Counted from the first letter of the stretch, positions 3,949 through 64,000 are shown. The stretch: 64,000 bases of DNA from Nitrospirota bacterium (GCA_040754455.1 JBFMCP010000005.1:1-64000); one strand, 5' to 3'. Notes: generated by a model not told the origin, from the letters alone. Numbers and translations are program-made.

Positions 3949-5103
3949 ATGAAGAGCACGAACCAACCAGCCCGCCATGATGATCTTCGCTGTCTGCTTG
4001 CGCTTTCCTTTATAAAGGATGTCGGGCCGGTAACGATCAAACGGCTCCTCGCTGCATTCCCCTCGGCCCCGTCGATCTTTGAGGCATCGTTTGAAGAACT
4101 GCAAAGAACAGCCGATATAAAAGAGGCGCACGCAAGACGAATAAAAGATTTTGCCGCATGGGATCTCGTCGAAAGGGAGATCGAACAGGCGGAACAACGG
4201 CATATACGGATCATCGCCTGTACCGACAGCAGTTATCCCGAGTCGCTGCGGGTGATCAATGGTCCGCCGCCGGTACTCTACATGAAAGGTGAGATGCATA
4301 AAGATGACACCTTTGCCATCGCGATGGTTGGGTCGAGAATGATGTCGGATTACGGCAGGACAGTTGCCCATAACCTCGCCTTCGAGCTCGCTTCGCACGG
4401 ATTGACGATTGTGAGCGGCATGGCGCGCGGCATCGATACGATCTCGCACAAAGGAGCGCTCAAGGCCGGCGGCAGGAGCATCGCCGTGCTCGGCTGCGGA
4501 CTGGACCGGCCCTATCCTCCCGAAAATGCCGAACTCTTTGAAGAACTCTCCCATGCCGGCTGCGTTATCAGCGAGTTCCCCTTCGGCACCCCGCCGACCA
4601 GGGAAAACTTTCCCCGGAGGAACAGGGTGATCAGCGGCCTCTCTCTGGGGGTACTGGTGGTCGAGGCAACACGCAACAGCGGCTCTCTGATCACCGCTCA
4701 GCATGCCCTCGATCAGGGGAAGGAGGTCTTCGCCGTGCCCGGAAAGATCACGGCAAAGACCTCGGAGGGGACCAACGCCCTCATCAAAAAGGGGGCTAGA
4801 CCTGTGCATACGGCAGAAGATATAATAGAAGAGTTGTCGTCCCTGCTGAGGGGCCTTCTCCGTTCCCGCAGTAATTCCTCAGAGCAATCGAACAAAAAGC
4901 CTTCTGATATTCCGGACGGACTTGAAATATCTGATGAGGAACGGGCAATATGTAGTGTTTTGAATGATGAGCCGAAGCATATCGACAGCATTGCACGGGA
5001 GCTTGCCATGGCTCCTTCCAAACTTCTAGGGCTGCTCCTCACCCTTGAACTCAAAGGCATTGTCAAGCAGACAGAGGGAAAAAACTTTTATATACTTTTT
5101 TAA
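3949..5103 (+). CDS. dprA: DNA-processing protein DprA
   Basis: IVSGMARGID, FPRRNRVISGLS, SGSLITA. Confidence 0.97.
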   Translation: MKSTNQPARHDDLRCLLALSFIKDVGPVTIKRLLAAFPSAPSIFEASFEELQRTADIKEAHARRIKDFAAWDLVEREIEQAEQRHIRIIACTDSSYPESLRVINGPPPVLYMKGEMHKDDTFAIAMVGSRMMSDYGRTVAHNLAFELASHGLTIVSGMARGIDTISHKGALKAGGRSIAVLGCGLDRPYPPENAELFEELSHAGCVISEFPFGTPPTRENFPRRNRVISGLSLGVLVVEATRNSGSLITAQHALDQGKEVFAVPGKITAKTSEGTNALIKKGARPVHTAEDIIEELSSLLRGLLRSRSNSSEQSNKKPSDIPDGLEISDEERAICSVLNDEPKHIDSIARELAMAPSKLLGLLLTLELKGIVKQTEGKNFYILF

Positions 5104-49716: not shown

Positions 49717-51417
49717 CTAAAACGCTTTGACTTTTACGACCTCCCTCTTCTTCGCATCCACCACATGGATTGCGCACGCAAGACACGGATCGAAAGAGTG
49801 GACGGTCCTCAACACCTCGAGCGGCTTTTCGGGATCAGCGACAGGATTGCCGATAAGAGATGCCTCATAGGGGCCGAGCGCATCCCCATCGTTTCTCGGG
49901 CCGGCATTCCAGGTCGAAGGCACCACTGCCTGATAGTTTTTAATCTTCCCCTTATCGATCACCACCCAATGGGAGAGTACGCCCCTCGGCGCTTCGTGGA
50001 ATCCGAAACCTTTGATCTCCCCCTTCGGAAATTCGGGACGATTGAAGGTTGTCATATCGCCTTTTGCAATGTTATTAACCAATGCCTCCCACTGACTCTT
50101 GAGGGTCTCATACATCACCGCGCAACGCACTGCTCTCGCTGCATGGCGGCCGATGGTCGAGTGGAGCGCCGTTACCGGCACCTTAGCGCCGGCGAGGCTG
50201 CTCACTGTAGCAAGCGCTTTATCCGTATATTTCTTGGTGGGTGCATGTCCTGCGGCATACATACACAAAACATTTGCAAGCGGACCGACCTGAGCCGGCT
50301 TTCCATTAAAGCTGGGTGCCTTCACCCAGGAATACTTGCCGTTGTCCTGGAAATTGGTATAGTGCGGGATCGTCTCCTCCTCCCACGGATGGCGCGTCCA
50401 GTTGCCTTCGTACCACGAATGTTTAATGCTTTCTTTGACGCCTTTCTTGAAGGTCTCGTCCTGGAAGCTCGTGATCGGCTTGAAGCGGCCGATATCGCCG
50501 CCCTCGATGTAGCCGCCGGGATGCGCAAACACGGTTCCTCTGGAATCCATCGGGAAGTCGGGAACAGAAAGATAATTCGTTACTCCTGCGCCGTACTTGG
50601 TCCAGTCGGCATAGAAGGCGCCTACTGCACAGACATCAACAAAATAGACATTGTGTACGAAGTCGCCGATCTCATCGATGATCGATTTGATGTAGTACAG
50701 CCGCTCCATCGTCAGTGTCGAGGGGCTGTCGGGGTTGATCGGATTGGCGACGCCGCCTACTGCCAAATTCTGGATATGCGGGGTTTTGCCGCCGAGGATC
50801 GAGACGATCATGTTTGCCTTGCGCTGGTACTCGAGCGCCTGGAGGTAGTGCGCTGCAGCGAGCAGGTTGACCTCGGGCGAGAGCTTCATGGCAGGATGAC
50901 CCCAGTAGCCATTGGTAAAGATGCCGAGCTGGCCGGTGCCGACAAAGGCCTTGAGTCGGTCCTGCACCTCTTTGAAGTGCTGCGAGCTGTTCATCTTCCA
51001 TGAGGAGACGCTCTGGGCGATCTGCGCTGTCTTCCTGGGATCAGCTTTCAACGCCGAAACGATATCCACCCAGTCAAGAGCGGAGAGATGATAGAAGTGA
51101 ACAATGTGATCATGGATTGCATGAGCAGCGATAATGAGATTTCTTATATACTGTGCATTGACCGGCACCTCGAGGTTCAATGCGTTCTCGACGGCTCTTA
51201 CTGACGCAATCGCATGCACCGTGGTGCAGACACCGCAGATTCTCTGGGTAAAGAGCCATGCCTCGCGCGGGTCTCTCCCCTTGAGGATGAGCTCGATGCC
51301 GCGCCACATCTGGCCCGACGACCAGGCGTTCTTCACCACCCCGCCGTCGATCTCGCAGTCTATCCTCAAATGACCTTCTATTCTTGTTACCGGATCGATG
51401 GTTATTCTTTTTGACAT
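49717..51417 (-). CDS. hybC: [NiFe] uptake hydrogenase large subunit (Hyd-2-like)
   Basis: RIEGH, RICGVCTTVH, DPCLACAIH. Confidence 0.95.
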   Translation of the reverse strand: MSKRITIDPVTRIEGHLRIDCEIDGGVVKNAWSSGQMWRGIELILKGRDPREAWLFTQRICGVCTTVHAIASVRAVENALNLEVPVNAQYIRNLIIAAHAIHDHIVHFYHLSALDWVDIVSALKADPRKTAQIAQSVSSWKMNSSQHFKEVQDRLKAFVGTGQLGIFTNGYWGHPAMKLSPEVNLLAAAHYLQALEYQRKANMIVSILGGKTPHIQNLAVGGVANPINPDSPSTLTMERLYYIKSIIDEIGDFVHNVYFVDVCAVGAFYADWTKYGAGVTNYLSVPDFPMDSRGTVFAHPGGYIEGGDIGRFKPITSFQDETFKKGVKESIKHSWYEGNWTRHPWEEETIPHYTNFQDNGKYSWVKAPSFNGKPAQVGPLANVLCMYAAGHAPTKKYTDKALATVSSLAGAKVPVTALHSTIGRHAARAVRCAVMYETLKSQWEALVNNIAKGDMTTFNRPEFPKGEIKGFGFHEAPRGVLSHWVVIDKGKIKNYQAVVPSTWNAGPRNDGDALGPYEASLIGNPVADPEKPLEVLRTVHSFDPCLACAIHVVDAKKREVVKVKAF

Positions 51418-51438
51418 GGAATATTCCTCCTATAAAAA

Positions 51439-52575
51439 TTATGCGTGCTTCACATCTGGCAGCACCGGAAGGGTTTTGACAACTACCAGATACAACAGCA
51501 CCTCCAGCGCTATGATGCCCAAGGTTATCATTGTCTCGGAAAAGGACGGGAAATAGTGCCACCCCGGACCGGGATCGAATCCTATTAAAAACGCGTTAAA
51601 ACGGTAGACCGCTCCTGCAAGCAGCATGAGCACCGCACCGATGAAGAGCATGCGCGGCCGTTCCCTGTTGACAGGCCTGAAGAGTATTACCATAGGTGCG
51701 ATATACAATATATTTTCGATGATGAACATGAAGCTTTTTATATCCAGCCTGAGAATTGCGCCGAGCTGTCCTCTCCAGAGGAGATCGCCGAATCTGAACA
51801 CCAGATAGAGCAGGATAAGCTTGGGAATAATTGCCGAGAGCTTTGACAGCAGCGGGGTCTCCATCGGCCTCCTGAACCCGAGGGAGGAGATAATCGACTC
51901 GAACACCACAATCGCGTATCCCATCGTAATCGAAGAGATCAGGAAGAGCAGCGGGATGAAGTCGGTCTGCCACAGGGGTGAAACCTTCTGCCCCGCGATA
52001 TAGATCAGCAATCCCAGTGATGACTGGTGCATGGTCGGCAGGAGCACGCCGATGGCGATAAATGCAAAGAGGACTTTTTTCAATACCTTGAGTACCTTCT
52101 CCTTGTTCCAACGCTCAAGGAATGCGGGGGTGAATTCTATCCAGAGCACCATGATGTAGGTCGTGACGCAGAGAGCCACCTCGAACATGACCGAGTTGAG
52201 CTGTGCGTACCACGGCAGGATGAGATTATAGGCCTGCCAGTAGCGCCCTACGTCGAAAAAAATTGATACTCCCGCGAGCGTGTATCCGAACATGCTCGCA
52301 AGGATTGCAGCGCGTATGAGCGGATAATAGGTCTTCTTGTTGAACACATAGATCAGCAGTGCCATCGCATACCCGCCGCAGGCAAAGGCGGTACCCACCA
52401 CAACGTCATAGGCGATCCAGATACCCCACGGATAGCCGTCGCTCATATTGGATACCGCACCGATACCAAAGATGAATCTCTTGATGATCAGAATACCCGC
52501 AAAGAGCGCAAAAGCAGCCAGGACCAGAAAAGGCTTGGTGATGATTTTTCCTCCCAATGGCTTAAACCCTCCCAT
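51439..52575 (-). CDS. hybB: Hydrogenase-2 membrane subunit (NrfD family)
   Basis: PWGIWIAYDV, LPTMHQSSLG. Confidence 0.93.
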   Translation of the reverse strand: MGGFKPLGGKIITKPFLVLAAFALFAGILIIKRFIFGIGAVSNMSDGYPWGIWIAYDVVVGTAFACGGYAMALLIYVFNKKTYYPLIRAAILASMFGYTLAGVSIFFDVGRYWQAYNLILPWYAQLNSVMFEVALCVTTYIMVLWIEFTPAFLERWNKEKVLKVLKKVLFAFIAIGVLLPTMHQSSLGLLIYIAGQKVSPLWQTDFIPLLFLISSITMGYAIVVFESIISSLGFRRPMETPLLSKLSAIIPKLILLYLVFRFGDLLWRGQLGAILRLDIKSFMFIIENILYIAPMVILFRPVNRERPRMLFIGAVLMLLAGAVYRFNAFLIGFDPGPGWHYFPSFSETMITLGIIALEVLLYLVVVKTLPVLPDVKHA

Positions 52576-52592
52576 ATCTCTCTCCTTTATCG

Positions 52593-53546
52593 CTACTCAT
52601 CTTTTTTTGTATTTCGATACACTGCATACAGAAGGCCGCCCAGAAGGGCAACGGGTGCGATCATTCCCTTGTAGATCGTATGCTGGAGCCCTTCCGACCG
52701 TGCTGCATCAGACACCTCCGAGAGCTTCGGCATGCCGAGCTTGTCGAAGGGCACTCCCGCGAGCATAAGGATCTGCGTGCCGCCGCCGTCCTTTTCCCCG
52801 TAAAGGTAGGGATAATACTGTTCGACAGCGCGTAACGATTTCTGGTCCGAGTTGATATGGGCCACAGGGAATTCGTACTCGTCTCCGGGTCTCAACGTCA
52901 ATCGGCGGCGTGCCTCCGCCTGCAGATCGGTGACCTTTCCGTACAGCGAGGCGCCGGTGGGACAGAACTCGCAGCATGCCGCATATTTGCCCTCTTTGAG
53001 ACGGTGCGAACAGAGCTGGCACTTCCTGATCTGCGGGAACGGTTCGTCCCATTCGAACTTCGGGATGTTGTAGGGACAGGCGACCTGGCAATATCTACAT
53101 CCGATACAGGCATCCTTGTTATAACTCACAATGCCGGTCTTCGGGTCTTTGGTCAGTGCCGAGACCGGACAGGCCGAAACGCAGGAAGGATCGATGCAAT
53201 GCATACACTGCCTTTTGACATAGGAGAAACCGTTCTCTTTATCTTTTTCAACTCCCGCGCCGTGCGTGTAGAGCTTGATGATGTTGAGCGTCTTTCCGGA
53301 AAGATCGAGGGGATTGTCATAAATGTTGTCCGTCGTCGAATGCTCGGGGGGCATGTTGTTGTACTGCTTGCATGCCGCAACGCAGGCCTTGCATCCGATG
53401 CAGAGGGTTGCATCATATAAAAAACCGACAGCTTCGGGAGGCAGGGCTTTGGGAGCCCTCGCTGCCAGTGCAGAAGGGACATCCGCCGCGAGCAGCAGTC
53501 CGCCATAGGCTACTCCTTTCAAGAAGTCTCGTCTCTTCATATCCAT
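52593..53546 (-). CDS. hybA: Hydrogenase-2 Fe-S subunit
   Basis: Tat KRRDFLK, four 4Fe-4S motifs, C-terminal TM. Confidence 0.94.
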   Translation of the reverse strand: MDMKRRDFLKGVAYGGLLLAADVPSALAARAPKALPPEAVGFLYDATLCIGCKACVAACKQYNNMPPEHSTTDNIYDNPLDLSGKTLNIIKLYTHGAGVEKDKENGFSYVKRQCMHCIDPSCVSACPVSALTKDPKTGIVSYNKDACIGCRYCQVACPYNIPKFEWDEPFPQIRKCQLCSHRLKEGKYAACCEFCPTGASLYGKVTDLQAEARRRLTLRPGDEYEFPVAHINSDQKSLRAVEQYYPYLYGEKDGGGTQILMLAGVPFDKLGMPKLSEVSDAARSEGLQHTIYKGMIAPVALLGGLLYAVYRNTKKDE

Positions 53547-53549
53547 GGC

Positions 53550-54692
53550 CTACTTCTCCTTCTTCCTGGGGTGCTCTTCCTTCTTCTCCGCATCCCTCTC
53601 ATGCTCGCCGAGCCTCTTTGCCAGGGTAGCACCCGCTCCGATCGCAGCACCCGCAACCCCTGCCACCACAGCAGCGCCGAGCACGGTGGCGCCGCCGCCC
53701 TTCTCCTCATGAATACGGGGATAGGTCGAGGGGGGAGTAACGGTATGCAGCCTGGCGAGGGTGTGGAGCGGTGTACTGAATCCAACGCCCTTTTCAGAGC
53801 AGCCGAAGCAGGGATGGCCCGCACCGACAGGCCATGTGCCTGCACCCGTGTCGCCGAATTGCAGGGTCGAGCAGTTGTTGAAGGTCTCTGGTCCCTTGCA
53901 CCCTAGTTTGTAGAGGCAATAGCCTTTTCTATGGTTTTCATCACCGTACTGGATGGCAAATCTTCCTGCGTCGAAGTGGGGCCGCCGCTCGCAGTTCTCG
54001 TGGATAACACGGCTATAGGCGAACGTGGGCCTGCCTTTTTCATCGAGCTCGGGGAGTTTTTTGAGAGTCAGGAAGTGGATAACGGTTGAGAGTAAATTAT
54101 AGGGGTTCGGAGGGCATCCGGGAATCGTGACAACAGGTTTGCCTTTCACAAGCTCTGTTATTCCTTTTGCGCCGGTGGGGTTCGGTCCGGCAGCGGGTAT
54201 GCCACCCCAAGATGAGCAGGAGCCCATGGCGATCACCGCTGCTGCGTGCGGATAGGTTTCATTCAGAATTTCAAGGGCGGTCTTACCACCGATCTTGCAG
54301 TAGATACCTCCCTCTTTTGTTGGCACCGAGCCGTCGACCACGAGGATGAATTTGCCTTTGTTTTCCTGGATCGATTTCTGCTTCGCTGCCTCGACCTGAT
54401 GGCCTGCGGCAACGCTGAGCGTTTCGGAGTAATCGAGCGAGATGAGATCGAGAAGGAGATGCTCCAGTGTAGGATGAGTGGAGCGCAGGAGAGATTCGAC
54501 ACATCCGGTGCACTCCTGGAAAGAGAGCCAGATCACCGGCGGACGTTTGGGGTTGGTAATTGCTTCTGCGATCTTCGCCCCCATGCCGAGGGGCAATCCC
54601 ATACCGGCAGCCATGACCGTACAATACCTCAGGAAATCCCTTCGCGATATGCCGCCGAGCTTCTTTCTGACTTCAGCCTCATGCTCTTTCAT
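53550..54692 (-). CDS. hybO: [NiFe] hydrogenase small subunit
   Basis: SRRDFL, ECTGC, GCPPNP, C-terminal anchor; SD GGAGG before ATG 54692. Confidence 0.94.
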   Translation of the reverse strand: MKEHEAEVRKKLGGISRRDFLRYCTVMAAGMGLPLGMGAKIAEAITNPKRPPVIWLSFQECTGCVESLLRSTHPTLEHLLLDLISLDYSETLSVAAGHQVEAAKQKSIQENKGKFILVVDGSVPTKEGGIYCKIGGKTALEILNETYPHAAAVIAMGSCSSWGGIPAAGPNPTGAKGITELVKGKPVVTIPGCPPNPYNLLSTVIHFLTLKKLPELDEKGRPTFAYSRVIHENCERRPHFDAGRFAIQYGDENHRKGYCLYKLGCKGPETFNNCSTLQFGDTGAGTWPVGAGHPCFGCSEKGVGFSTPLHTLARLHTVTPPSTYPRIHEEKGGGATVLGAAVVAGVAGAAIGAGATLAKRLGEHERDAEKKEEHPRKKEK

Positions 54693-54765
54693 AGTCTCCT
54701 CCGTCCTCTTTTCTTTGTTCATTTGCCTATGAATTCCATAATTTCAATGATTTTCTTCTTTTTCG

Positions 54766-54803
54766 TGTTATTAACATTATACTGTCAATAAATTTGTTGT
54801 CAA
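54766..54803 (-). promoter_or_regulatory. Consensus sigma70 promoter with TGTTA-N-TAACA dyad over the start site
   Basis: TTGACA(54803-798)-N16-TATAAT(54781-776); dyad 54766-54776. Confidence 0.75.
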
Positions 54804-55248: not shown

Positions 55249-55728
55249 TTACGGGTGAGAGAGCATCGGCTCCAAAGCAGTGACAAGCAAAGATACTACG
55301 CGAGGCATGGCTGCAGCCACCGCATCTGTCATTGCATCACCGAAGTGCACTACATCTTCCGCCTCTACGGCCCAGATGGCGATGTCCTCCGGAAGGTCGA
55401 ATCCCATGCGCTTTCCGGCTTCGAAGGCGCAGGCGAGTGTCGTATCGTGCATCGACGAACTATGGAGGGTTGCCGGGACGTTGCGGAGGCTCAGCCGGTA
55501 TACAGTACCGGCCGGCGCATTCCCGGTGCAGATCGCATCGATGAGGAACACCCTGTCATAGCCGATCATCTCTTCCATGAGTCTCAGTCCGCCTACGGAT
55601 AATTCCTTTATATCGATCCCCTCATGTTCCCGAACATGCTTCCTCAATTCCCGCGCAACGGCGATGCCGATGCCGTCATCACGAAGAATCGGGTTACCGA
55701 GGCCGATGATTAAGGTTTTTTTTATCAT
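55249..55728 (-). CDS. Hydrogenase maturation protease
   Basis: GLGNPILRDDGIG, IDA, SSMHD. Confidence 0.92.
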   Translation of the reverse strand: MIKKTLIIGLGNPILRDDGIGIAVARELRKHVREHEGIDIKELSVGGLRLMEEMIGYDRVFLIDAICTGNAPAGTVYRLSLRNVPATLHSSSMHDTTLACAFEAGKRMGFDLPEDIAIWAVEAEDVVHFGDAMTDAVAAAMPRVVSLLVTALEPMLSHP

Positions 55729-55742
55729 AGTAATAGAATCAT

Positions 55743-55823
55743 AGAATTCAGGAGCCAGGAGTCAGAAGCCAGAATAAAAGCTTTCCTTCCCCTTCTAGCT
55801 CCTGACTTCTGGATTCTGGCTCT
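55743..55823. repeat. Inverted heptamer hairpin, AGAAGYC family
   Basis: AGAATTC AGGAGCC AGGAGTC AGAAGCC AGAATAA / AGCTCCT GACTTCT GGATTCT GGCTCT. Confidence 0.88.
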
Positions 55824-55828
55824 ATGCT

Positions 55829-57313
55829 TTAATATTGCGACAGCTCCCTGATTACCTCTCCTGCTTGATTACGTATTCTGACCCTGAGCGGCATCTGTCC
55901 CGGCAGCGCATGGGTTGCGCAGGAGAAGCAGGGATCGTAGAGTCTGAACGCCATCTCTATCCTGTTCAGCAGCCCCTGTTCGATGATGGTGCCCTTGCTG
56001 ATAAGGGTCTGGGCCGCCTTCTTAACGGACATCGCAATCGGCGCGTAGTTGTTGGTAGTACCGACAACGAGATTGACTTTTTGCAGGATTCCTCGCTCAT
56101 CGGTCCGGTAATGGTGCGTGAGCGTACCGCGGGGCGCCTCCACAGCGCCGACTCCTTCAACGGGTGTTTCGGTAGGAATGACACGCACATGGGGATCGGT
56201 GATTTCAGGATCGACGATCAGCTCATGCATGCGCTCCGCAGCATAGAGGAGCTCGATCAGCCGCGCCCAGTGTGTTGCGAGGCGGTAATGCACCGGCCCG
56301 TAACTGCCGTCGTCCCTTTTCGTGCCGAGCGTTGCATAGAACTGTTCGAAGGCCTCCTGTGCGCGGGGTGTGGCCATGCCCTTTGCAACATTGAGACGCG
56401 CCAGCGGCGTTGCACAATACACGCCGCTCTGAGCTCCATCGACAAAGCCCTTCCAGCCGACCGCCTTCAGATAAGGGAATTTAAGGTACGTCCAGGATTC
56501 GACACGCTCGGTAATGTGATCCCGGTAATCGCGGGGATGATAGTTCACCAATTCGTTCCCGTCGGGGTCAACAACGCGCACCCGGCCATCGTAAAAGTTG
56601 ATATAACCTCTTTCATCAACAGTGCCCATGTAATAGGTACGGTGGGTATAGGCATCGGACACCATGAGGTCATGGTACTCGGGGTTCTGCAAAACGACCG
56701 AACGGAACAGATCGAGGCTCCGGAGCGCAAAAGCGATATTCTTTTCCGCTATGAGCTGAATCTCTCTCTGCTCCTCTCCGGTGAGCGCCTTGCTCCATCC
56801 GCCCGGAAGCCCGGCGCAGGGATGGATCACTCTTCCGCCGACCAGCTGAATGGCGTGGTGGTTCCTTTTTCTGCACTCGATCACCTCTCTGCCGATATCG
56901 ATGCCGATCTTCTGCAATACGCCGAAGATATTTCGCTCGGCAGGCGGCGCATCGGGCCCCACAATGAAATCAGGTCCTCCAAGGGCATAGAAGTGGGTCG
57001 TGTGGTCGGCAACGAAGAAGGCAGAGTAGAACATCTCCCGCAGCTTCTTTGCCGCAGGAGGAGGATCGACCCTGTACAAATCATCGAGCGCCTTGGTTGA
57101 TGCTATGTGATGGGCTTCGGGACAGATGCCGCAGATGCGGCTGGTGATATTCGGCATATCCTCTGCGAGGCGTCCGACACAGAACTGCTCGAACCCCCTC
57201 AACTCGGGGACAATGAAATAGGCATTCGCTACCTCACCTTCGTCGTTGAGGAATATCTCAATCCTGCCGTGGCCTTCCAGCCTCGTCACCGGGTCAATGC
57301 TGATCTTCTTCAT
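55829..57313 (-). CDS. mvhA: Group 3c [NiFe] hydrogenase large subunit
   Basis: [21 protein letters not shown]. Confidence 0.92.
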
Positions 57314-57320
57314 AATCGAT

Positions 57321-57398
57321 AAAGATAAAAAATCAAAAAGAAAAAAGCAAAATTAATAAATTCATTACTTTTAATCTTTTCTTTTTGCATTTTAATCT
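57321..57398. repeat. Inverted A-rich heptamer hairpin
   Basis: AAAAATC AAAAAGA AAAAAGC AAAATT / TTTTAATCTTTTCTTTTTGCATTTTAATCT. Confidence 0.65.
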
Positions 57399-58393
57399 CC
57401 CCTGAAGGGGTGCCGCGCCCTCTGTAGCAGCGAATGCGCCAGACTGAATTTATAAAAAGTCCCTGCCGGATCAAGAAGGGAATTGAGCGCATCTTCGATC
57501 TGCCTGCTTATCGCATCATCACCGTTCCCTTCGATATCGACCTCTACGATTGACGCCAGTGCAGAGAGCATCGCCGCGCCCTGATCGATGACGCCTTCGG
57601 CCGGCCCATAGCATCCGATGCAGGGCATGCCTGCCTTCGGACAGAGGGCTGTACAGCCGCTCCTGGTGGCTGGGCCCATGCAGACCATGCCCTGGTCGAT
57701 AAGGCAGTTCTCTTTATCCGGGATGATTTCGTGGAGGCGATAAAGCTTTCTGACCCGCTTTTCTCTTCGTAGGCGGGGACACTCTTCACAAAGGGCCTTT
57801 GCGCCTGCACCGATCACTGAACCTTTCGGAGGAAGATCACCGCCTTTCATCACCATATCTATGACCGTCTGAATCTGATGCGGTTCAGGAGGGCAGCCGG
57901 GAACCGAGTAATCCACATCAACGGTCTGCCGCAGACTTTTTACAGTGTCATGAAACGAGGGCAGATGGAGCTCCCCCTCATCGACTGTAGTAGTTACCCT
58001 GGGTGTTATCGAATAAGGATTATCGGTACTCGGATTTTCGAGATAGATGGAAGCAGCATGATCACGTGCACTCGACAGGTTCGACAATCCGGGGATACAC
58101 CCCTCATACGCGCATGAGCCGAAGGCGACGAGCAGCCTCGATTTTGCTCTGAGCAGACGGGCCATTGCCACGTCATCATCATTACGGATAGCGCCGTTGA
58201 AAAAGGTGAGCGCTATAGCACCATCGGAAAGCGCTTCCACATCGCTTCGCTTGCCGTCCATGACACAGGGCCAGAAGACCGGCTCGAAGACAGTAGCAAA
58301 ATCGAGTAGCTCCTCATGTATGCCGAGGAGCGCGATCTCGCACCCGCCGCAGGCAGAGGCCCAGTACATAGCGAATTTCGAACGTTCCTGCAT
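57392..58393 (-). CDS. mvhG: Group 3c hydrogenase small subunit
   Basis: ACGGCE, GSCA, PGCPP, CMGPATRSGC; TGATG overlap with mvhD. Confidence 0.92.
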   Translation of the reverse strand: MQERSKFAMYWASACGGCEIALLGIHEELLDFATVFEPVFWPCVMDGKRSDVEALSDGAIALTFFNGAIRNDDDVAMARLLRAKSRLLVAFGSCAYEGCIPGLSNLSSARDHAASIYLENPSTDNPYSITPRVTTTVDEGELHLPSFHDTVKSLRQTVDVDYSVPGCPPEPHQIQTVIDMVMKGGDLPPKGSVIGAGAKALCEECPRLRREKRVRKLYRLHEIIPDKENCLIDQGMVCMGPATRSGCTALCPKAGMPCIGCYGPAEGVIDQGAAMLSALASIVEVDIEGNGDDAISRQIEDALNSLLDPAGTFYKFSLAHSLLQRARHPFRGD

Positions 58394-58827
58394 CACTGCC
58401 TCCTCCCGCTGATCACCTGAGGCCACTGCAGCGGTCCCAGTGCCCGCAATGCCGCAGTCATCCTGTTTATCTTTTCTGAAAGAGCAGCTCCCTCTGAAGC
58501 AGAGACCCAGGCAAGCTGTATGCGCTCGCGCTCGATGCCGAACTGTCCGGCAAGATTTCGTACGAGATGAAAGCGTCCGAGGGTTCTTATATTGCCTGCC
58601 TCATAGTGGCATTCGCCGGGATGGCATCCGGCAATGAGAACGCCGTCCGCTCCCTCCCGCAGTGCCTTGAGCACCAGCTGCGGCTCGACTCTTCCGCTGC
58701 ACATGACCCTGATGATGCGGAGGTTCGGAGCAGAATGGAGACGCAGCGTGCCGGCGCGGTCCGCTGCGCGGTAGGCGCACCAGTTGCAGAAGAAACCGAC
58801 AATAACAGGCTCGAAAGAATTAATCAT
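58393..58827 (-). CDS. mvhD: Hydrogenase 2Fe-2S delta subunit
   Basis: CNWCAY, MCSGRV, GCHPGECHY. Confidence 0.95.
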   Translation of the reverse strand: MINSFEPVIVGFFCNWCAYRAADRAGTLRLHSAPNLRIIRVMCSGRVEPQLVLKALREGADGVLIAGCHPGECHYEAGNIRTLGRFHLVRNLAGQFGIERERIQLAWVSASEGAALSEKINRMTAALRALGPLQWPQVISGRRQ

Positions 58828-58889
58828 AAGCCTCTACTCTATTGAGAGCGTTTTCGCATTAAGCAGTGAAGACCTGAACCCCTTGTGGC

Positions 58890-58975
58890 AGATTAAAAAT
58901 TAAAAAGAAAAATGAAAAATTGAGGATTCCTTATTTTTGAATTTTTCTTTTTTATTTTTAATTTTACCTTTTTAT
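58890..58975. repeat. Inverted A-rich heptamer hairpin
   Basis: TAAAAAT TAAAAAG AAAAATG .. GAGGATTCCTT .. TTTTTGAATTTTTC. Confidence 0.65.
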
Positions 58976-59011
58976 TCTGTACAACCGATGAGCGCATCCG
59001 TCAGGTTTGTA

Positions 59012-60994
59012 TCATATCTTCCTGTCTCGATCATATAATATGCCTTCGATCTCCGCCATCATCTGTTCGTCGGTAAAGTGATCACTGGTGATCGCCCTGG
59101 CAGGGCACGCAGCCACACAGGCGCCGCACCCCTGGCAGAGGGCAGCATCGATGTCCGCCTGATTGCTCTTCTCATTCATAGAAAGAGCACTATAGGGACA
59201 AAGATCAAGGCACATCCGGCATCCGCTGCACCGCTCCTTGTCGATGCTCGCCCGTATCGGCTCGAGCTCGATAGTCCCTTTATTAATAAGAGAAAGGATC
59301 TTTGCTGCAGCAGCGCCTGCCTGTGCAATGGTCTCGGTTATATCCTTCGGTCCCTGGCAGGCTCCTGCTACGAATATCCCCTCGCGCAGGGTAACGACCG
59401 GATCGAGCTTGGGATGCTTCTCTGCAAAGAATCCCTCGCTGTCGCATTCAACACCGAGCAGCCGGGCAACAGAGCGTGCATCGGCCCTCGCTTCCATGGC
59501 GGTGCTCAATACCACCATGTCCACGGGGATACGCCGCTGGATGCCGAGCAGTGTATCCTCAGCCTGGATGACGAGCTTGCCTTCTTCTTCAGGATAATAT
59601 GCCGAGTCCATAACAGTCGCCACCCGTCCCCTGACGAAATGGATCTTTTCACCCAGGAGCTTCTGGTAGAACTCCTCATAGGTCTTCCCCCCTGCCCTCA
59701 TGTCGATGTAAAAATTGTAGACAGAAGCCCCGGTCTTCTCCTTTATAAGGTGGGCGAACTTCAGCGAGTACATACAGCAGACCTTTGAACAATAATCGTG
59801 GTAGTTCTTATCGCGGCTCCCGACGCAATGGATAATCGCAACACTTTCAGGCTCGGCGACCCGGTCTCTGAGCATGACCTTTCCGCCGGTAGGCCCGGCA
59901 GCGCTCAGCATACGTTCAAGCTCGATACCAGTAAACACATTGGGGTATCTGCCGTACCCGTACTGCGGGATCCGCAGGGGATCAAAAAGATCAAAGCCCG
60001 TCGCAATAACGATATTCCCCACCGTAAGGGTAAGCGTTGTATCGCTCTGGTCGAACCGGACCGCCTGGGCAGGACACTCTTTCTCGCAGATCCTGCACTG
60101 GCCCAATTCGAAAAAGGAGCAGATGTTCCGGTCGATTACCGGATAACGGGGGACCGCGCCGGCAAAGGGAATGGCGCATGCCTTCCGCAAACCGAGTCCT
60201 GCCTCGAAATCGTTATCGTGCACCTCCTGCGGGCACTTCTGCTGGCAGATGCCGCATCCTATGCAACGGTCCTCGTCGATAAAGCGTGCCTTCTTTCTCA
60301 CTTTTATAGTGAAGCTGCCTGCCCTCCCCTTCGCTTCCTCAACCTCGCTATACGTCAGGAGCGTTATATGCGGGTGCCGGCGTACTGCTGCCATGCGCGG
60401 ATCGAGCATGCAGTCGGCGCAATCGAGGGTAGGAAAAGTCTTATCGAGCTGTGCCATGCGGCCACCGATACTCGGTGCCCTCTCCACCAGATAGACCTGC
60501 CTGCCCGCATCGGCTATCTCGAGTGCCGCCGTGATGCCGGCGATGCCTCCTCCGATGACAAGCGTATCAGGATTGACCGGCACCGATATCTTCGACAGAG
60601 GTTTGTGATGCAGGACCCGATGGACAGCAGCCGAGACCAGTGCCTTGGCCTTCTCGGTCGCAGCCGCCGTGTCGCCGGCAGTCCATGCATCATGCTCCCG
60701 CACATTGACGATCTCGCAAAAGTAGGGGTTCAATCCCGCCCGTGCACAGGCCTTCCTGAAGGTTGGTTCGTGCAGATGCGGCGAGCAGGCGACGATGACA
60801 ATACGGGAGAGACTGTTCTCCTTGATATCACGCTCGATCAACCCCTGCCCGTCGCCTGAACACATGAAACGGTCATCTCGGACAACAACGACATTGCCCA
60901 GCGTCGATGCAAAAGATGCGAGGGCTTTGATATCGAGACCCTCGGCGATATTCGTCCCGCAATGGCAGAGATAGACGCCTATCCTCTCACTCAT
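59012..60994 (-). CDS. hdrA: Heterodisulfide reductase subunit A
   Basis: CHCGTNIA, GGGIAG, KTFPTLDC, CVGSRD, CSKVCCMY. Confidence 0.96.
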   Translation of the reverse strand: MSERIGVYLCHCGTNIAEGLDIKALASFASTLGNVVVVRDDRFMCSGDGQGLIERDIKENSLSRIVIVACSPHLHEPTFRKACARAGLNPYFCEIVNVREHDAWTAGDTAAATEKAKALVSAAVHRVLHHKPLSKISVPVNPDTLVIGGGIAGITAALEIADAGRQVYLVERAPSIGGRMAQLDKTFPTLDCADCMLDPRMAAVRRHPHITLLTYSEVEEAKGRAGSFTIKVRKKARFIDEDRCIGCGICQQKCPQEVHDNDFEAGLGLRKACAIPFAGAVPRYPVIDRNICSFFELGQCRICEKECPAQAVRFDQSDTTLTLTVGNIVIATGFDLFDPLRIPQYGYGRYPNVFTGIELERMLSAAGPTGGKVMLRDRVAEPESVAIIHCVGSRDKNYHDYCSKVCCMYSLKFAHLIKEKTGASVYNFYIDMRAGGKTYEEFYQKLLGEKIHFVRGRVATVMDSAYYPEEEGKLVIQAEDTLLGIQRRIPVDMVVLSTAMEARADARSVARLLGVECDSEGFFAEKHPKLDPVVTLREGIFVAGACQGPKDITETIAQAGAAAAKILSLINKGTIELEPIRASIDKERCSGCRMCLDLCPYSALSMNEKSNQADIDAALCQGCGACVAACPARAITSDHFTDEQMMAEIEGILYDRDRKI

Positions 60995-61910
60995 TCTTTG
61001 TCCTCATCCGTTTTTTCGGCTCTTTTGTTTCAGGGCGCCCTACTTTCATTTTCGTGAGCACCGGTTCAGCGGAAACAATCTCTTTTCCGATGCCGAGGAC
61101 AAGCGGGTCAAGCCCGAAGGCCAGTCCCATGAGCTGGGTAAAGAAGAGGACAGGGATGTTGAAATGAGTATTAAAATGCTTATTCACATCATCCTGGTAG
61201 GCGTCGAGATTGATCTGGCATACCGGACAGAGGACCGCAATGGCGTCCGCTCCGCTCTTCTGAGCGCTCTTCAGTATCCTGCGCAGGAGCTCGTAGGCGG
61301 TGATCGCTTTTATATGGGGCATATGTCCGCCGCAGCAGTTCGATTTCATCGAGAATTCGGCCACTGTTGCGCCGAGTGCAGTGAGGATTCTATCCATAGA
61401 GGTCGGATGCTCGGGATGGTCGAACCCGTCACCCGGCCTCGTCAGCATACATCCGTAGAACGGGGCGATGCGCAGATTGCTGAGAGAGGTAGTCACTTTG
61501 GTGAAGAGTGCATCCACTCCCACATCGTTGAGAAAGATGTCGAGGAAATGGCGAATCCTGAGCACGCCAGGATTGTAGTGAAGTCCGCCTTCAGCAAGGG
61601 CGTCATTGACCGCCTCATTGATGTCAGGATGCTCATGCATCACCTTATCGGTCCTCCGCAGATTCGAAAAACAGAGGCTACAGGAGGTAATCACCTGGCT
61701 ATGCCCCTGAGGGACCAGAGCCAGGTTGCGCGCCGAGAGCGCGTAGTGGGCAAGACGGTTGATCGAGAGATACTCCGTAGCACCGCAGCAGTTCCAGTCG
61801 GGGATGTCGGTCAGCTCGATATTGAACAGCTCCATCACCGCTCTGGCCGACTGCGTGTAGGCTGCAGCCATGTGCTCTGAGGAGCAGCAGGGGAAAAGGG
61901 CGTATCTCAC
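60987..61910 (-). CDS. hdrB: Heterodisulfide reductase subunit B
   Basis: Two CCG domains (WNCCGA, YGC..CCGG..CPVC). Confidence 0.94.
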   Translation of the reverse strand: MRYALFPCCSSEHMAAAYTQSARAVMELFNIELTDIPDWNCCGATEYLSINRLAHYALSARNLALVPQGHSQVITSCSLCFSNLRRTDKVMHEHPDINEAVNDALAEGGLHYNPGVLRIRHFLDIFLNDVGVDALFTKVTTSLSNLRIAPFYGCMLTRPGDGFDHPEHPTSMDRILTALGATVAEFSMKSNCCGGHMPHIKAITAYELLRRILKSAQKSGADAIAVLCPVCQINLDAYQDDVNKHFNTHFNIPVLFFTQLMGLAFGLDPLVLGIGKEIVSAEPVLTKMKVGRPETKEPKKRMRTKNE

Positions 61911-62836
61911 GGTTTTCTTTCTCTCTCTTTAGCCTTGTTCACAATACGTCGCAGTTGCTCAATACCCTCGATCTTCGAGGGACCCAGGACGATCCGCTCC
62001 TTTTTGTAGAGTTTCAGTGCCAGCGAACCCCAGGAATGCCGGTCGGCGGGATTATGGTCCAGACGGTAGCGCATGGCGAGACCGAAATCGAAGCTGCGGC
62101 CGTACTTCTCGATGAGATTGATAAATGTCTTCGAGAAGTCATAGGCATCGGTGATCTTGACAATCCCCTCGCGCACTGCCATTTGCTTGAGGGTGTACAT
62201 GATATCGGTGATTGGGATCTGCTGGGGACATCGCACGGTGCAGTAATAGCAGGAGACGCAGAACCATGGAGTATTGCTCAAAAGGACCTCCTGCTTCAGC
62301 CCGGCCAGCAGCATGGCAAAGAGGTGGCGCGGCGTGTAATCCATGTCTTCGGCAGAAGGGCACGAGCCGCCGCATGTTCCACATTGCAGGCACCTCGTGA
62401 GCGTGCTCCCCTCCGGCGTTTCAGCCATAACCGCCTCCAGAAAGCTGCGGCCCTCTGTGGTTTCCCTATCCATCGCAATCCGCAGCCGTTCGCTTTTTTT
62501 CCTGAAGGGATTGTCGATCTGGTCAGCCCCGCTGACGAGCCGCTCTTTCTCGGCAGACACATCTTCCTGGTACATCTGAAAGGTCTCTTTTATTTCAACG
62601 AGATTGAACCCCTTGCTCTTGAGCGCGAAGATCCACTTTATTGTCTCGATAACGCTCTGGGGATAGAAGAATTTGACGCCGCCCGTACCCTGCCCTTTTC
62701 TGATCCCCTTGGGAAGCAGGCCCGACTGCACATAAAATTGGAAAGTCCTCTTGGTGAGCTTGTACCCCTCATCAGAGAGCAGTCTGATAATCTCGTCGAG
62801 CGTATAAAAAGGGATGGCATCCAAAGATGTTTCCAT
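61907..62836 (-). CDS. hdrC: HdrC with N-terminal MerR-type HTH domain
   Basis: TKRTFQFYVQSGLLP..GFNLVEIK followed by CLQCGTCGGSCP and CVSCYYCTVRCP. Confidence 0.88.
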   Translation of the reverse strand: METSLDAIPFYTLDEIIRLLSDEGYKLTKRTFQFYVQSGLLPKGIRKGQGTGGVKFFYPQSVIETIKWIFALKSKGFNLVEIKETFQMYQEDVSAEKERLVSGADQIDNPFRKKSERLRIAMDRETTEGRSFLEAVMAETPEGSTLTRCLQCGTCGGSCPSAEDMDYTPRHLFAMLLAGLKQEVLLSNTPWFCVSCYYCTVRCPQQIPITDIMYTLKQMAVREGIVKITDAYDFSKTFINLIEKYGRSFDFGLAMRYRLDHNPADRHSWGSLALKLYKKERIVLGPSKIEGIEQLRRIVNKAKERERKP

Positions 62837-62843
62837 CACTATA

Positions 62844-62872
62844 TATATACTGTTAGTAACAGCATCTGTCAA
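62844..62872 (-). promoter_or_regulatory. hdr promoter with a dyad in the -35/-10 spacer
   Basis: TTGACA-GATGCTGTTACTAACAG-TATATA. Confidence 0.65.
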
Positions 62873-62937: not shown

Positions 62938-62966
62938 TTGACAATATCATAGGGTATGCGTAAACT
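62938..62966 (+). promoter_or_regulatory. argS promoter
   Basis: TTGACA-N17-TAAACT, 8 nt before ATG. Confidence 0.7.
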
Positions 62967-62974
62967 TAAAAGTT

Positions 62975-64000
62975 ATGGAAAAAACTTTAAGAGAAATTCT
63001 CACGAAGATCGGGTATGCCGAGGTCGAAATCGAGGTACCGAAAGAGGAATCCTTCGGCGACCTGTCGACGCCCCTGCCGATGAGCCTCACCAAAGTCCTC
63101 AAAAAAGCGCCGCGAAAAATCGCCGAAGAGCTCGTTGCCAAAATCGAAGGCAGTGATATATTCGAAAGGGTCGAAATTGCCGGCCCGGGGTTTATCAACT
63201 TCACGTTCAAGAGATCATTTATTTTTAACGAGCTGAGAAGGCTCATTGCCGAACAGGAGGCCTTCTTGAAAGAGGATGTCGGCAGGGGCAGACGGATACA
63301 GATCGAATTCGTGAGCGCCAATCCCACCGGCCCTATGCATCTGGGCCATGGAAGGGGCGCAGCACTCGGAGCAGCGCTTTCCAACCTCCTTCAGGAGGCC
63401 GGCTTCAGTGTTGAGAAGGAATTCTATATCAACGATGCAGGACGCCAGGTCAGGCTGCTGGGACTTTCGGTCTTTGCAAAATACAAACATCTTTACGGCA
63501 TGAACTATTACGCCTTTCCCGAGGACGGCTACCGTGGAGCATACGTGGAAGACCTCGCACGGGAACTGCATGAAGCGTACGGCTCAAGCTTTGCGGACAA
63601 GGAGTTTGAGGAAGTAGCACCGACAGTGATCGATTTCGCCTATCAGAAGATGCTCGCAGTGATAAAAAAAGACCTCGAAGACTTCGGCGTCATCTTCGAT
63701 ACGTGGCAGAGCGAGAGAGAGCTTTATGCCAACGACGAGGTCAACAAGGCAATCGCCGATCTCAGAGAGCGCGGTTACATTTACGAAGAAGAAGGCGCCA
63801 CATGGTTCAGATCAACCGCCTTCGGCGATGACAAAGACAGAGTCATCATAAAGAAAGACGGCGAATACACCTATTTTGCGCCTGACATCGCTTACCATAG
63901 AAAGAAAATCCAAAAAGGTTTTGACGAGCTCATCGATATCTGGGGGGCCGACCACCACGGCTACATCCCGCGCATGCAGGCGGTCATACAGGCATTGGGC
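62975..64000 (+). CDS. argS: Arginine--tRNA ligase (runs off the window end)
   Basis: Own translation: MEKTLREIL..FGDLST..AGPGFINF..EFVSANPTGPMHLGHGRG..WGADHHGY. Confidence 0.97.
   Translation, partial: MEKTLREILTKIGYAEVEIEVPKEESFGDLSTPLPMSLTKVLKKAPRKIAEELVAKIEGSDIFERVEIAGPGFINFTFKRSFIFNELRRLIAEQEAFLKEDVGRGRRIQIEFVSANPTGPMHLGHGRGAALGAALSNLLQEAGFSVEKEFYINDAGRQVRLLGLSVFAKYKHLYGMNYYAFPEDGYRGAYVEDLARELHEAYGSSFADKEFEEVAPTVIDFAYQKMLAVIKKDLEDFGVIFDTWQSERELYANDEVNKAIADLRERGYIYEEEGATWFRSTAFGDDKDRVIIKKDGEYTYFAPDIAYHRKKIQKGFDELIDIWGADHHGYIPRMQAVIQALG

What the first reader, a model, noticed from the sequence alone, without database searches (positions are those of the whole stretch)
61907..62872. HdrC fused to a MerR-type DNA-binding domain, with a dyad in its own promoter spacer
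Seen: about 85 N-terminal residues fit the MerR HTH pattern (YTLDEI..LTKRTFQFYVQSGLLP..Y..IKWIFALKSKGFNLVEIK), joined in frame with no clear internal SD to an intact 2x[4Fe-4S] HdrC. It is the first gene of hdrCBA-mvhDGA. The TTG used by the ORF track is part of a TTGACA -35; the spacer holds the perfect dyad CTGTTA-C-TAACAG (62850-62862) and the ATG at 62836 follows with no SD. Established: MerR proteins bind dyads between -35 and -10, and SoxR couples an Fe-S cluster to such a domain; canonical HdrC has no HTH. Inference: a subunit of an electron-bifurcating complex doubling as a redox- or assembly-sensing autoregulator. The -10 is imperfect (TATATA fits at 17 or 19 bp).
Basis: partly seen in the sequence, partly recalled or inferred. 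Interest (0 to 1): 0.85.

Follow-up and report, generated by a model that had tools for sequence, protein, structure and literature searches.

The report
Hydrogen enzyme subunit doubling as repressor
A subunit of a hydrogen-using enzyme complex carries its own DNA-binding domain, and a matching DNA palindrome sits on the promoters of hydrogen-uptake genes almost only in bacteria that have this fusion, so the enzyme complex probably controls these genes directly; binding and signal are untested.

Summary
The fusion is real. The 309-aa protein joins a MerR-type HTH (Pfam MerR_1 above cut-off) to an HdrC-like domain with both 4Fe-4S motifs. It is unbroken in three other assemblies and found in 28 protein clusters, in Nitrospirota and Thermodesulfobacteria, including cultured Thermosulfurimonas dismutans. 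It lies directly before hdrB in hdrCBA-mvh operons beside an uptake hydrogenase.

The dyad is more than a self-operator. TGTTA-N-(T/A)AACA lies before the fusion gene (13 of 15 loci) and before the uptake-hydrogenase operon (11 of 12 fusion genomes, 1 of 51 loci without). In this genus it also precedes formate dehydrogenase. At hdr and hydrogenase promoters it sits from -21 to +8 over 16-18 bp spacers, which points to repression, not MerR/SoxR-type activation.

Corrections: there is an internal Shine-Dalgarno before Met137, and no conserved MerR coiled coil.

Best reading: the Mvh-Hdr complex acts as a DNA-binding H2/redox sensor. Binding, direction and signal are inferred, not shown. Not found in ten literature searches, nor in this scan's earlier notes on other DNA.

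The parts
61907..62836 (-). HTH-hdrC fusion gene, 309 aa, probably leaderless (ATG 62836)
   Evidence: frame intact in 3 other assemblies
62576..62806 (-). MerR-type winged HTH, residues 11-87; helix KRTF and wing invariant across 28 fusions
   Evidence: Pfam MerR_1; alignment; fold like TnrA, SoxR, GlnR, Z 9-10
62447..62575 (-). variable linker, residues 88-130; no conserved coiled coil
   Evidence: 16-29% identity; 23-68 aa from HTH end to first Cys; pLDDT under 50 at 103-119
62426..62438 (-). internal SD (GGAGG) and in-frame ATG of Met137: possible start of an HTH-less HdrC
   Evidence: a similar strong SD plus ATG in G001; no in-frame start in the linker of 5 of 7 Thermosulfurimonas-group genes
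61910..62446 (-). HdrC-like domain with two CxxCxxCxxxCP motifs
   Evidence: Z 14.5 to 7bkb_C
62850..62862 (.). operator palindrome 1, 13 bp perfect (core TGTTA-N-TAACA 62851-62861), centre about -19
62867..62872 (-). predicted -35 (TTGACA) of the fusion gene
   Evidence: sequence; kept in G001 and L005
62844..62849 (-). predicted -10 (TATATA), 17-bp spacer, 7 nt before the ATG
   Evidence: TATATT and TATACT at the same place in G001 and L005; start site not mapped
60987..61910 (-). hdrB-like, two CCG domains with cysteines intact
59012..60994 (-). hdrA-like flavoprotein, 660 aa
   Evidence: (808 bits, HdrA2 model, below cut-off)
58393..58827 (-). mvhD
   Evidence: Pfam FlpD
57392..58426 (-). 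mvhG (likely start ATG 58393, strong SD)
55829..57313 (-). mvhA, NiFe large subunit with both metal-binding motifs
55249..55728 (-). hydrogenase maturation protease
   Evidence: Pfam HycI
54776..54803 (-). perfect sigma-70 promoter (TTGACA-16-TATAAT) of the hyb-type operon
   Evidence: 12 of 12 matches
54766..54776 (.). operator palindrome 2, over the predicted start site of the uptake hydrogenase operon (centre about -2)
49717..54722 (-). hybOABC-type membrane-bound uptake hydrogenase operon, predicted target

Best explanation
The gene encodes an HdrC subunit that is also a sequence-specific repressor. Two HTH domains bind TGTTA-N-(T/A)AACA and block RNA polymerase at the hdrCBA-mvhDGA promoter and at the uptake-hydrogenase promoter; in this genus the site also precedes formate dehydrogenase. 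A weak leaderless start keeps the Mvh-Hdr complex at a low level. When H2 is present, electrons flow MvhA to MvhG to MvhD to HdrA to the HdrC clusters, the reduced complex leaves the DNA, and hydrogen uptake is switched on, with positive feedback on the sensor operon. Shown: the fusion, its conservation, synteny, the motif, its co-occurrence with the fusion, and its place over predicted promoters. Inferred: that this HTH reads the motif (about 0.85), that it represses (about 0.75), and that the signal is the H2-driven redox state of the assembled complex (about 0.55 overall).
For: Family: 28 full fusions among 29 long hits of the HTH profile (8000 candidates scored), all 28 with both cluster motifs; only 2 short hits among 5789 candidates. 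Fused HdrC domains form one side of a branch against 30 unfused ones, 95/91, and carry GR[SA]FD[FMI]G in 28 of 28 against 0 of 89. Between the two lineages the HTH is the most conserved part: 51% identity against 32% for HdrC, and 29-42% for the other five subunits (window against up to three loci). Site within 450 nt of the fusion gene, at most 1 mismatch: 13 of 15 scorable loci. The two misses have two sites each, at the shared divergent promoter (L007) or at the head of the operon they close (L011). Site before the uptake hydrogenase: 11 of 12 fusion genomes, against 0 of 27 and 1 of 24 loci of relatives where the fusion was not found (about 1 expected from shuffles). In G411, G412 and G580 the only genome-wide matches are these two promoters. 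The three perfect sites of the own genome lie before hdrC, hybO and fdnG, and G001 has all three. Site centres at hdr and hydrogenase promoters run from -21 to +8, plus one second site at +20. All metal-ligand motifs of HdrA, HdrB, MvhD, MvhG and MvhA are kept. Five of 7 Thermosulfurimonas-group genes have no in-frame start in the linker, so their HdrC must carry the HTH. Solved Hdr complexes are (ABC)2 dimers (title of 8rwn), which could supply two HTHs.
Against: No binding, expression or start-site data. Promoters were placed by my own consensus score, and in several loci the fitting promoter was only second best. In the Thermosulfurimonas group the hdrC site overlaps the -10 box, which explains part of its conservation there. 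Genomes with the fusion are kin within each lineage, so the counts are about two independent contrasts, and only the top 30 loci of each control search were read (30 of 53 and 30 of 58 places). G395 has the fusion but no site at its hydrogenase (best 2 mismatches) or at fdnG. Two of 27 fusion-less fdnG loci have a 1-mismatch site. The fdnG site is at -61/-62 of the best promoter, not a repressor position. Other fusion genomes have perfect sites in unrelated places: dnaA promoter, before nrdJ, inside genes. HTH and HdrC are modelled as independent domains (pTM 0.44 and 0.38), so no allosteric path is visible. The 117-row quick tree did not join the two fusion lineages. An internal start in this genus could separate regulator from enzyme.
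Confidence: 0.55

Rival explanations
1. Assembly or cofactor sensor: only free HTH-HdrC binds DNA. Capture by HdrB/HdrA, or loss or gain of its 4Fe-4S clusters, switches binding. The signal is subunit balance or Fe-S/oxygen status, not H2.
For: A flexible, variable linker with no visible coupling between domains. A very large complex on an 11-bp site with a 1-bp centre is sterically demanding. The internal SD and ATG in G000 and G001 could give separate long (regulator) and short (enzyme) forms, as TipAL/TipAS do (PMC6078987, passages).
Against: Subunit balance does not explain why the unrelated uptake hydrogenase and formate dehydrogenase promoters carry the site. In 5 of 7 Thermosulfurimonas-group genes no short form can be made.
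Confidence: 0.25
2. The palindrome is read by another factor (an unlinked regulator, or DnaA, whose box it resembles, recalled), or is partly a promoter element. The HTH does something else.
For: A perfect site lies before dnaA in G409 and a near-site before dnaA in the own genome. In the Thermosulfurimonas group the site reads as an extended -10 at hdrC. No genome-wide search for another regulator confined to fusion genomes was made.
Against: The site tracks the fusion in two lineages (11 of 12 against 1 of 51 loci). The one exception, G581, has its hydrogenase gene 38 nt from a contig start in a 1.4-Mb assembly where the hdr operon was not found. DnaA is universal, so it cannot explain absence in relatives. 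The site moves relative to the -10. No other regulator is shared by the loci of both lineages (neighbours matched only to the window's proteins and read by eye).
Confidence: 0.1
3. A canonical MerR/SoxR-type activator: the dimer sits between -35 and -10 and untwists a long spacer when the Fe-S clusters change state.
For: MerR fold, SoxR at Z 9.6. The site is between -35 and -10 in G000, G001, L005 and L006. The fdnG site is upstream at -61/-62, so activation of some kind is possible there.
Against: Spacers are 16-18 bp, not the 19-20 bp of MerR activators (recalled). The site also lies over the -10 or the start site. There is no conserved dimerisation helix and no conserved cysteine after the HTH.
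Confidence: 0.07
4. Assembly error or chance read-through joining two genes.
For: In L011 the two domains are in different frames. P0181 is an HTH plus linker of unknown context.
Against: 28 independent fused clusters. Three other assemblies have no indel. The L011 break is a frameshift inside a recognisable linker, in an assembly where the hydrogenase large subunit is also in pieces.
Confidence: 0.01

Closest known systems
MvhAGD-HdrABC / Hdr(ABC)2 complexes of methanogens (PDB 5odc, 7bkb, 8rvu, 8rwn)
   Same: Same six subunits, cluster motifs kept; HdrC domain Z 14.0-14.5.
   Different: Those HdrC chains are 183-191 aa with no HTH. Host is a bacterium; all Hdr models score below their equivalog cut-offs; the disulfide substrate is unknown.
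hdrCBA-mvhDGA of Thermosulfurimonas dismutans S95 (TDIS_0910-0915; PMC4911364, passages)
   Same: The same locus as L012, next to a group 1 uptake hydrogenase; the paper cites growth on H2 with thiosulfate.
   Different: The paper treats it as a catabolic H2:heterodisulfide oxidoreductase. Its main text has no 'MerR', 'helix-turn-helix' or 'DNA-binding'.
TnrA/GlnR (MerR-type HTH regulators controlled by glutamine synthetase)
   Same: Top fold match of the HTH (TnrA Z 10.0, rmsd 2.0 over 80; GlnR Z 9.0); no coiled coil (PMC9938897, passages); an enzyme sets DNA binding (PMC6978683, passages).
   Different: They are separate proteins. Their site has a 7-bp centre (recalled); here the centre is 1 bp and the HTH is part of an enzyme subunit.
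CvkR (PMC9938897, passages)
   Same: MerR-type repressor, leaderless mRNA, short palindrome with a 1-bp centre over promoters, no coiled coil; fold Z 7.7.
   Different: Different motif, own C-terminal dimer domain, controls CRISPR transposons, no Fe-S enzyme.
SoxR
   Same: MerR HTH joined to an Fe-S domain; HTH Z 9.6.
   Different: SoxR is a 2Fe-2S activator with a coiled coil on long spacers (recalled). Here 2x4Fe-4S, a 17-bp spacer, and membership of a multi-subunit enzyme.
Regulatory hydrogenase HoxBC-HoxJ-HoxA of Ralstonia eutropha (PMC6978683, passages)
   Same: A cytoplasmic NiFe hydrogenase linked to control of hydrogenase genes.
   Different: Signals through a kinase and a response regulator. 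Here an Mvh-type enzyme would be wired to an HTH on its own partner subunit.
Trigger enzymes PutA and BirA (PMC6978683, passages)
   Same: An enzyme with a built-in DNA-binding domain that represses its own operon.
   Different: Single-chain enzymes, not one subunit of an Fe-S/flavin complex; other DNA-binding folds (recalled).
HdrR of Methanosarcina barkeri (PMC11218639, passages)
   Same: A winged-HTH regulator binding a palindrome at an hdr promoter.
   Different: A separate protein, an activator, archaeal; no sequence comparison was made here.

Membership tests
MerR-type HTH domain (PF13411) | profile match above the curated cut-off | tested here: met
   26.4 bits (29.4 for the N-terminal part) against 21.6
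MerR-type HTH domain (PF13411) | winged HTH fold of MerR proteins | tested here: met
   pLDDT about 90-96 over residues 11-80; Z 9-10 to TnrA, PbrR, SoxR, GlnR
canonical MerR activators (MerR, CueR, SoxR) | antiparallel coiled-coil dimerisation helix after the HTH | tested here: not met
   linker 16-29% identical, up to 7 prolines in its first 30 residues; the model of the window protein extends a helix to residue 101, that of P0009 ends it at 81
canonical MerR activators (MerR, CueR, SoxR) | operator fixed inside a 19-20 bp spacer (recalled) | tested here: not met
   predicted spacers 16-18 bp, centres -21 to +8 (the script allowed only 16-18, but near-consensus boxes were found at 17 in G001 and L005)
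canonical MerR activators (MerR, CueR, SoxR) | full-length equivalog score | tested here: not met
   CueR 19.8 against 147; MerR 18.7 against 151
HdrC | two CxxCxxCxxxCP motifs and HdrC fold | tested here: met
   28 of 28; Z 14.5 and 14.0; E 1e-18 to solved HdrC
HdrC | encoded with hdrB and hdrA | tested here: met
   hdrB next in 11 of 12 loci, the twelfth cut by a contig end
methanogen CoB-CoM heterodisulfide reductase (equivalogs) | curated cut-offs for subunits A, B, C | tested here: not met
   C 90 against 160; B 195 against 345; A 808 against 1100
electron-bifurcating Mvh-Hdr complex | assembly with HdrAB-MvhAGD and bifurcation activity | not testable with these tools
   gene set and ligand motifs complete; no biochemistry
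trigger enzymes (PutA, BirA type) | one polypeptide is both an enzyme part and a DNA-binding regulator | tested here: inconclusive
   architecture and motif co-occurrence fit; binding and activity not shown
regulatory hydrogenases (HoxBC/HupUV type) | group 2 sensory hydrogenase with partner kinase | tested here: not met
   large subunit's best model is VhuA (Mvh type), with its own maturation protease; no kinase shared by both lineages' loci

The most novel reading that the evidence does not exclude
The whole MvhAGD-HdrABC assembly is a one-piece hydrogen sensor. The dimeric flavin/Fe-S complex docks on DNA through the HTH domains of its two HdrC subunits and is released when H2 reduces it. 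It thereby controls H2 (and formate) uptake with no kinase and no separate regulator. In the Thermosulfurimonas group, where all six subunits have diverged strongly while the HTH has not, it may have become a dedicated sensor rather than a catabolic enzyme.
Probability: 0.35. Interest if true: 0.92.

Novelty: new variant of a known kind. Interest (0 to 1): 0.8.

Why it matters
Bacterial Hdr-Mvh operons are read as energy-coupling enzymes, and in T. dismutans this one was proposed to act in sulfur disproportionation (PMC4911364). If its HdrC subunit is a repressor of the hydrogen-uptake genes, an electron-bifurcating-type complex is itself a transcription factor. That would be a route of H2 sensing in anaerobes distinct from the kinase-coupled regulatory hydrogenases, and it would change how this operon is read in these genomes. 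It is directly testable: the operator is 11 bp, the targets are named, and two cultured species (T. dismutans, T. marina) carry the system.

Tried and rejected
Complex prediction of two copies of the HTH (residues 7-92): no answer, score 0.00; no evidence either way. Sequencing-run search: no RNA holder listed. acsB as a target: perfect site in G001 only, not in G000, and 0 of 28 others; rejected as a conserved member. Met122 as an internal start: no SD, and the three spanning assemblies read Arg there. The longer ORF from TTG 62872: that TTG is the -35 box and G001's frame starts at the matching ATG. A search of 201 order genomes with the HdrC domain for unfused orthologs found only G000 and G001 at E 1e-25, so there is no same-operon control without HTH; nine more distant hdrB loci in Thermodesulfobacteria had no site (0 of 9, one with only 31 nt upstream). 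Distant stand-alone MerR-like genes (L017, L023, L024, P0182) are not fused. A PWM scan of the own genome also ranked unrelated hits highly: the top hit lies inside a gene, and hdrC, fdnG and hybO came 2nd-4th of 56. The careful 117-row tree did not finish; 58 of 147 unfused hits were dropped as partial or outside 160-230 aa; the finished tree used 45 rows. In one search the G001 start was mistyped by one base (gap 14, not 13; corrected). The Atlas search returned only generic MerR-like clusters. Literature searches showed no description of the fusion; PMC10553843 passages were irrelevant.

Full report
OBSERVATION. The minus strand holds one frame from ATG 62836 to the stop at 61907, 309 aa. 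Residues 26-87 pass the Pfam MerR_1 cut-off and 146-207 match Fer4_8. The C-terminal part is closest to HdrC by profile, sequence and fold. Downstream lie hdrB, hdrA, mvhD, mvhG, mvhA and a protease, then a hybOABC-type uptake hydrogenase. Contigs from 3 of the 4 runs laid span the gene without an indel, one of them from a study not marked as a possible source. One detail is wrong: GGAGG lies 5 nt before Met137, as strong as real starts nearby and matched by 2 of 73 internal ATGs.

FAMILY. A profile of seven HTH domains found 29 long proteins among 8000 candidates scored: 28 full fusions counting the own cluster, and one broken inside HdrC. It found two short ones among 5789. The fusion is rare: 4 of 401 phylum genomes (two further hits are distant unfused genes) and 8 of 63 in the class of T. 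dismutans. Record titles name Nitrospirota (4 of 10 loci) and Thermosulfurimonas, Thermodesulfatator or Thermodesulfobacteriaceae (6 of 10); many protein hits have no taxon. hdrB follows directly in 11 of 12 loci, and a group 1 hydrogenase operon is adjacent in the six loci that extend far enough. In a 45-row tree the fused HdrC domains fall on one side of a branch (95/91), with a long stem (1.81) to the Thermosulfurimonas group; a quick 117-row tree did not join them. A shared signature in 28 of 28 against 0 of 89 favours one origin. Between the lineages the HTH keeps 51% identity, HdrC 32% and the other subunits 29-42%, so selection on the HTH is strong. Some automatic annotations already name both domains (P0178, P0179), but I found no paper on it.

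THE SITE. TGTTA-N-(T/A)AACA, at most one mismatch, lies within 450 nt of the fusion gene in 13 of 15 scorable loci (L016 had only 49 nt; L008 and L009 are near-copies). L007 has two sites 465-482 nt upstream in a divergent promoter shared with the hydrogenase. L011's fusion closes the hydrogenase operon, whose promoter has two. The site also lies before the uptake-hydrogenase small subunit in 11 of 12 fusion genomes (the miss is G395). It lies there in 0 of 27 family relatives and 1 of 24 Thermodesulfobacteria loci where the fusion was not found (absence tested; about one expected by shuffling). The exception, G581, is cut 38 nt upstream in a small assembly. These controls used the top 30 loci of each search, and kin are not independent. 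The Thermosulfurimonas group uses the variant TGTTAAAAACA at both promoters; in G411, G412 and G580 these are the only matches in the genome. In the own genome the three perfect palindromes lie before hdrC, hybO and a selenocysteine-type fdnG. G001 has the same three plus one before acsB that G000 lacks. At fdnG, 2 of 3 fusion genomes have a perfect site, against 0 of 27 others (2 of 27 with one mismatch; absence also tested). Against this, G409, G395 and G262 have perfect sites in places with no hydrogen link, one before dnaA.

GEOMETRY. By my consensus scoring (not mapped), site centres are -19 to -21 at Nitrospirota hdrC promoters, -10 at Thermosulfurimonas-group hdrC promoters, and -19 to +8 at hydrogenase promoters (one second site at +20), with spacers of 16-18 bp. 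A site that floats across the polymerase footprint of near-optimal promoters indicates steric repression. The fdnG site is at -61/-62 in both genomes, a typical activator position (recalled), so the sign there is open. Twelve of 14 fusion genes lack an SD at the main start, which fits leaderless, low-level translation like CvkR (PMC9938897, passages).

PROTEIN. The HTH models with high confidence and matches TnrA, PbrR, SoxR and GlnR at Z 9-10, which are ties. It is followed by a 23-68 aa variable, often proline-rich linker, with no conserved coiled coil or cysteine. Both models treat the domains as independent. All partner subunits keep their ligand motifs, also in the divergent lineage, though model scores there are about half. 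In 5 of 7 Thermosulfurimonas-group genes no in-frame start exists in the linker, so HdrC there always bears the HTH. G000 and G001 could also make a short form, as TipA does (PMC6078987, passages).

MECHANISM. A palindrome needs two HTHs, and the protein has no MerR dimer helix. The Hdr(ABC)2 dimer seen in methanogen structures would present two tethered HTHs. The targets are H2- and formate-oxidising enzymes, and the operon encodes a cytoplasmic hydrogenase wired to HdrC. The simplest logic is a repressor released when the complex is reduced by H2 (0.55). Titration of free subunit or Fe-S status is the main rival (0.25). A trans factor (0.1), MerR-type activation (0.07) and artefact (0.01) are weaker. 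Every step from DNA binding onward is inference.

KNOWN SYSTEMS. It works like a trigger enzyme (PutA, BirA) and, in outcome, like the HoxBC-HoxJ-HoxA hydrogen sensor (PMC6978683, passages). It has a MerR-type domain but fails the tests for canonical MerR activators. HdrR is a separate activator of an archaeal hdr operon (PMC11218639, passages). The T. dismutans genome paper describes this operon without the HTH (PMC4911364, passages). Ten searches showed no account of the fusion. Other papers were seen only as listings, no supplements were read, and most subscription journals are not in the library, so a mention elsewhere is possible. Earlier notes of this scan hold no such fusion.

VERDICT. 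A real, conserved and apparently undescribed regulator-enzyme fusion with a predicted small regulon for hydrogen uptake. New variant of a known kind; interest 0.8.

Noticed in passing
proteins P0012, P0042, P0037: Other HdrC-like proteins carry N-terminal additions: a response-regulator receiver (P0012, 347 aa), a weak Lrp/AsnC ligand-binding match (P0042) and DUF2096_N (P0037). The HdrC N-terminus may be a recurrent place for regulatory domains.
   Followed up: no
L113:3-5122 (G000:C17): Periplasmic formate dehydrogenase operon: FdnG-type alpha subunit split by an in-frame TGA at 4517-4519 (likely selenocysteine), then HybA/HmcB-like and HybB/HmcC-like subunits; perfect palindrome 88 nt upstream.
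   Followed up: partly
L114:1973 and G000:C9:60308: The dnaA promoter carries a perfect (G409) or near (G000) copy of the palindrome within a conserved AT-rich repeat; probably a DnaA-type box that resembles the site.
   Followed up: partly
L140:1501 (G001): Perfect palindrome in the short gap before acsB of the Wood-Ljungdahl operon; absent in G000 and 28 other relatives.
   Followed up: yes
G000:C2:31612 and C2:39424: Weak matches to the site matrix upstream of an acsE-like gene and a NuoE-like gene (named by eye) around the Wood-Ljungdahl cluster; scores 13, below the three main sites.
   Followed up: no
L012:10004-15997, L008, L014: In the Thermosulfurimonas group all six Hdr-Mvh subunits are shortened and divergent (29-42% to the window) while the adjacent uptake hydrogenase keeps 58-65%; ligand motifs are intact.
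   Followed up: partly
L011:9953-10878: HTH and HdrC in different frames through a frameshift in the linker; the hydrogenase large subunit in the same record is also in pieces, so likely a sequencing error, though programmed frameshifting was not excluded.
   Followed up: partly
window 54783-54788: A second TTGACA inside the spacer of the hyb promoter is conserved in G001 while the outer -35 is not; it may be a second, overlapping promoter that puts the palindrome at about -19.
   Followed up: partly
window 55249-61910: Starts of hdrB, hdrA, mvhD, mvhA and the protease have weak or no SD (0 to -5.6 kcal/mol) against -8 to -10 for hybA, hybB and hybC, a hint of lower translation of the Hdr-Mvh operon; mvhG is an exception (-11).
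   Followed up: partly
window 62938-64000: argS starts at 62975 on the + strand, divergent from the fusion gene, with its own predicted promoter (62938-62966); not shared by the other loci read.
   Followed up: no
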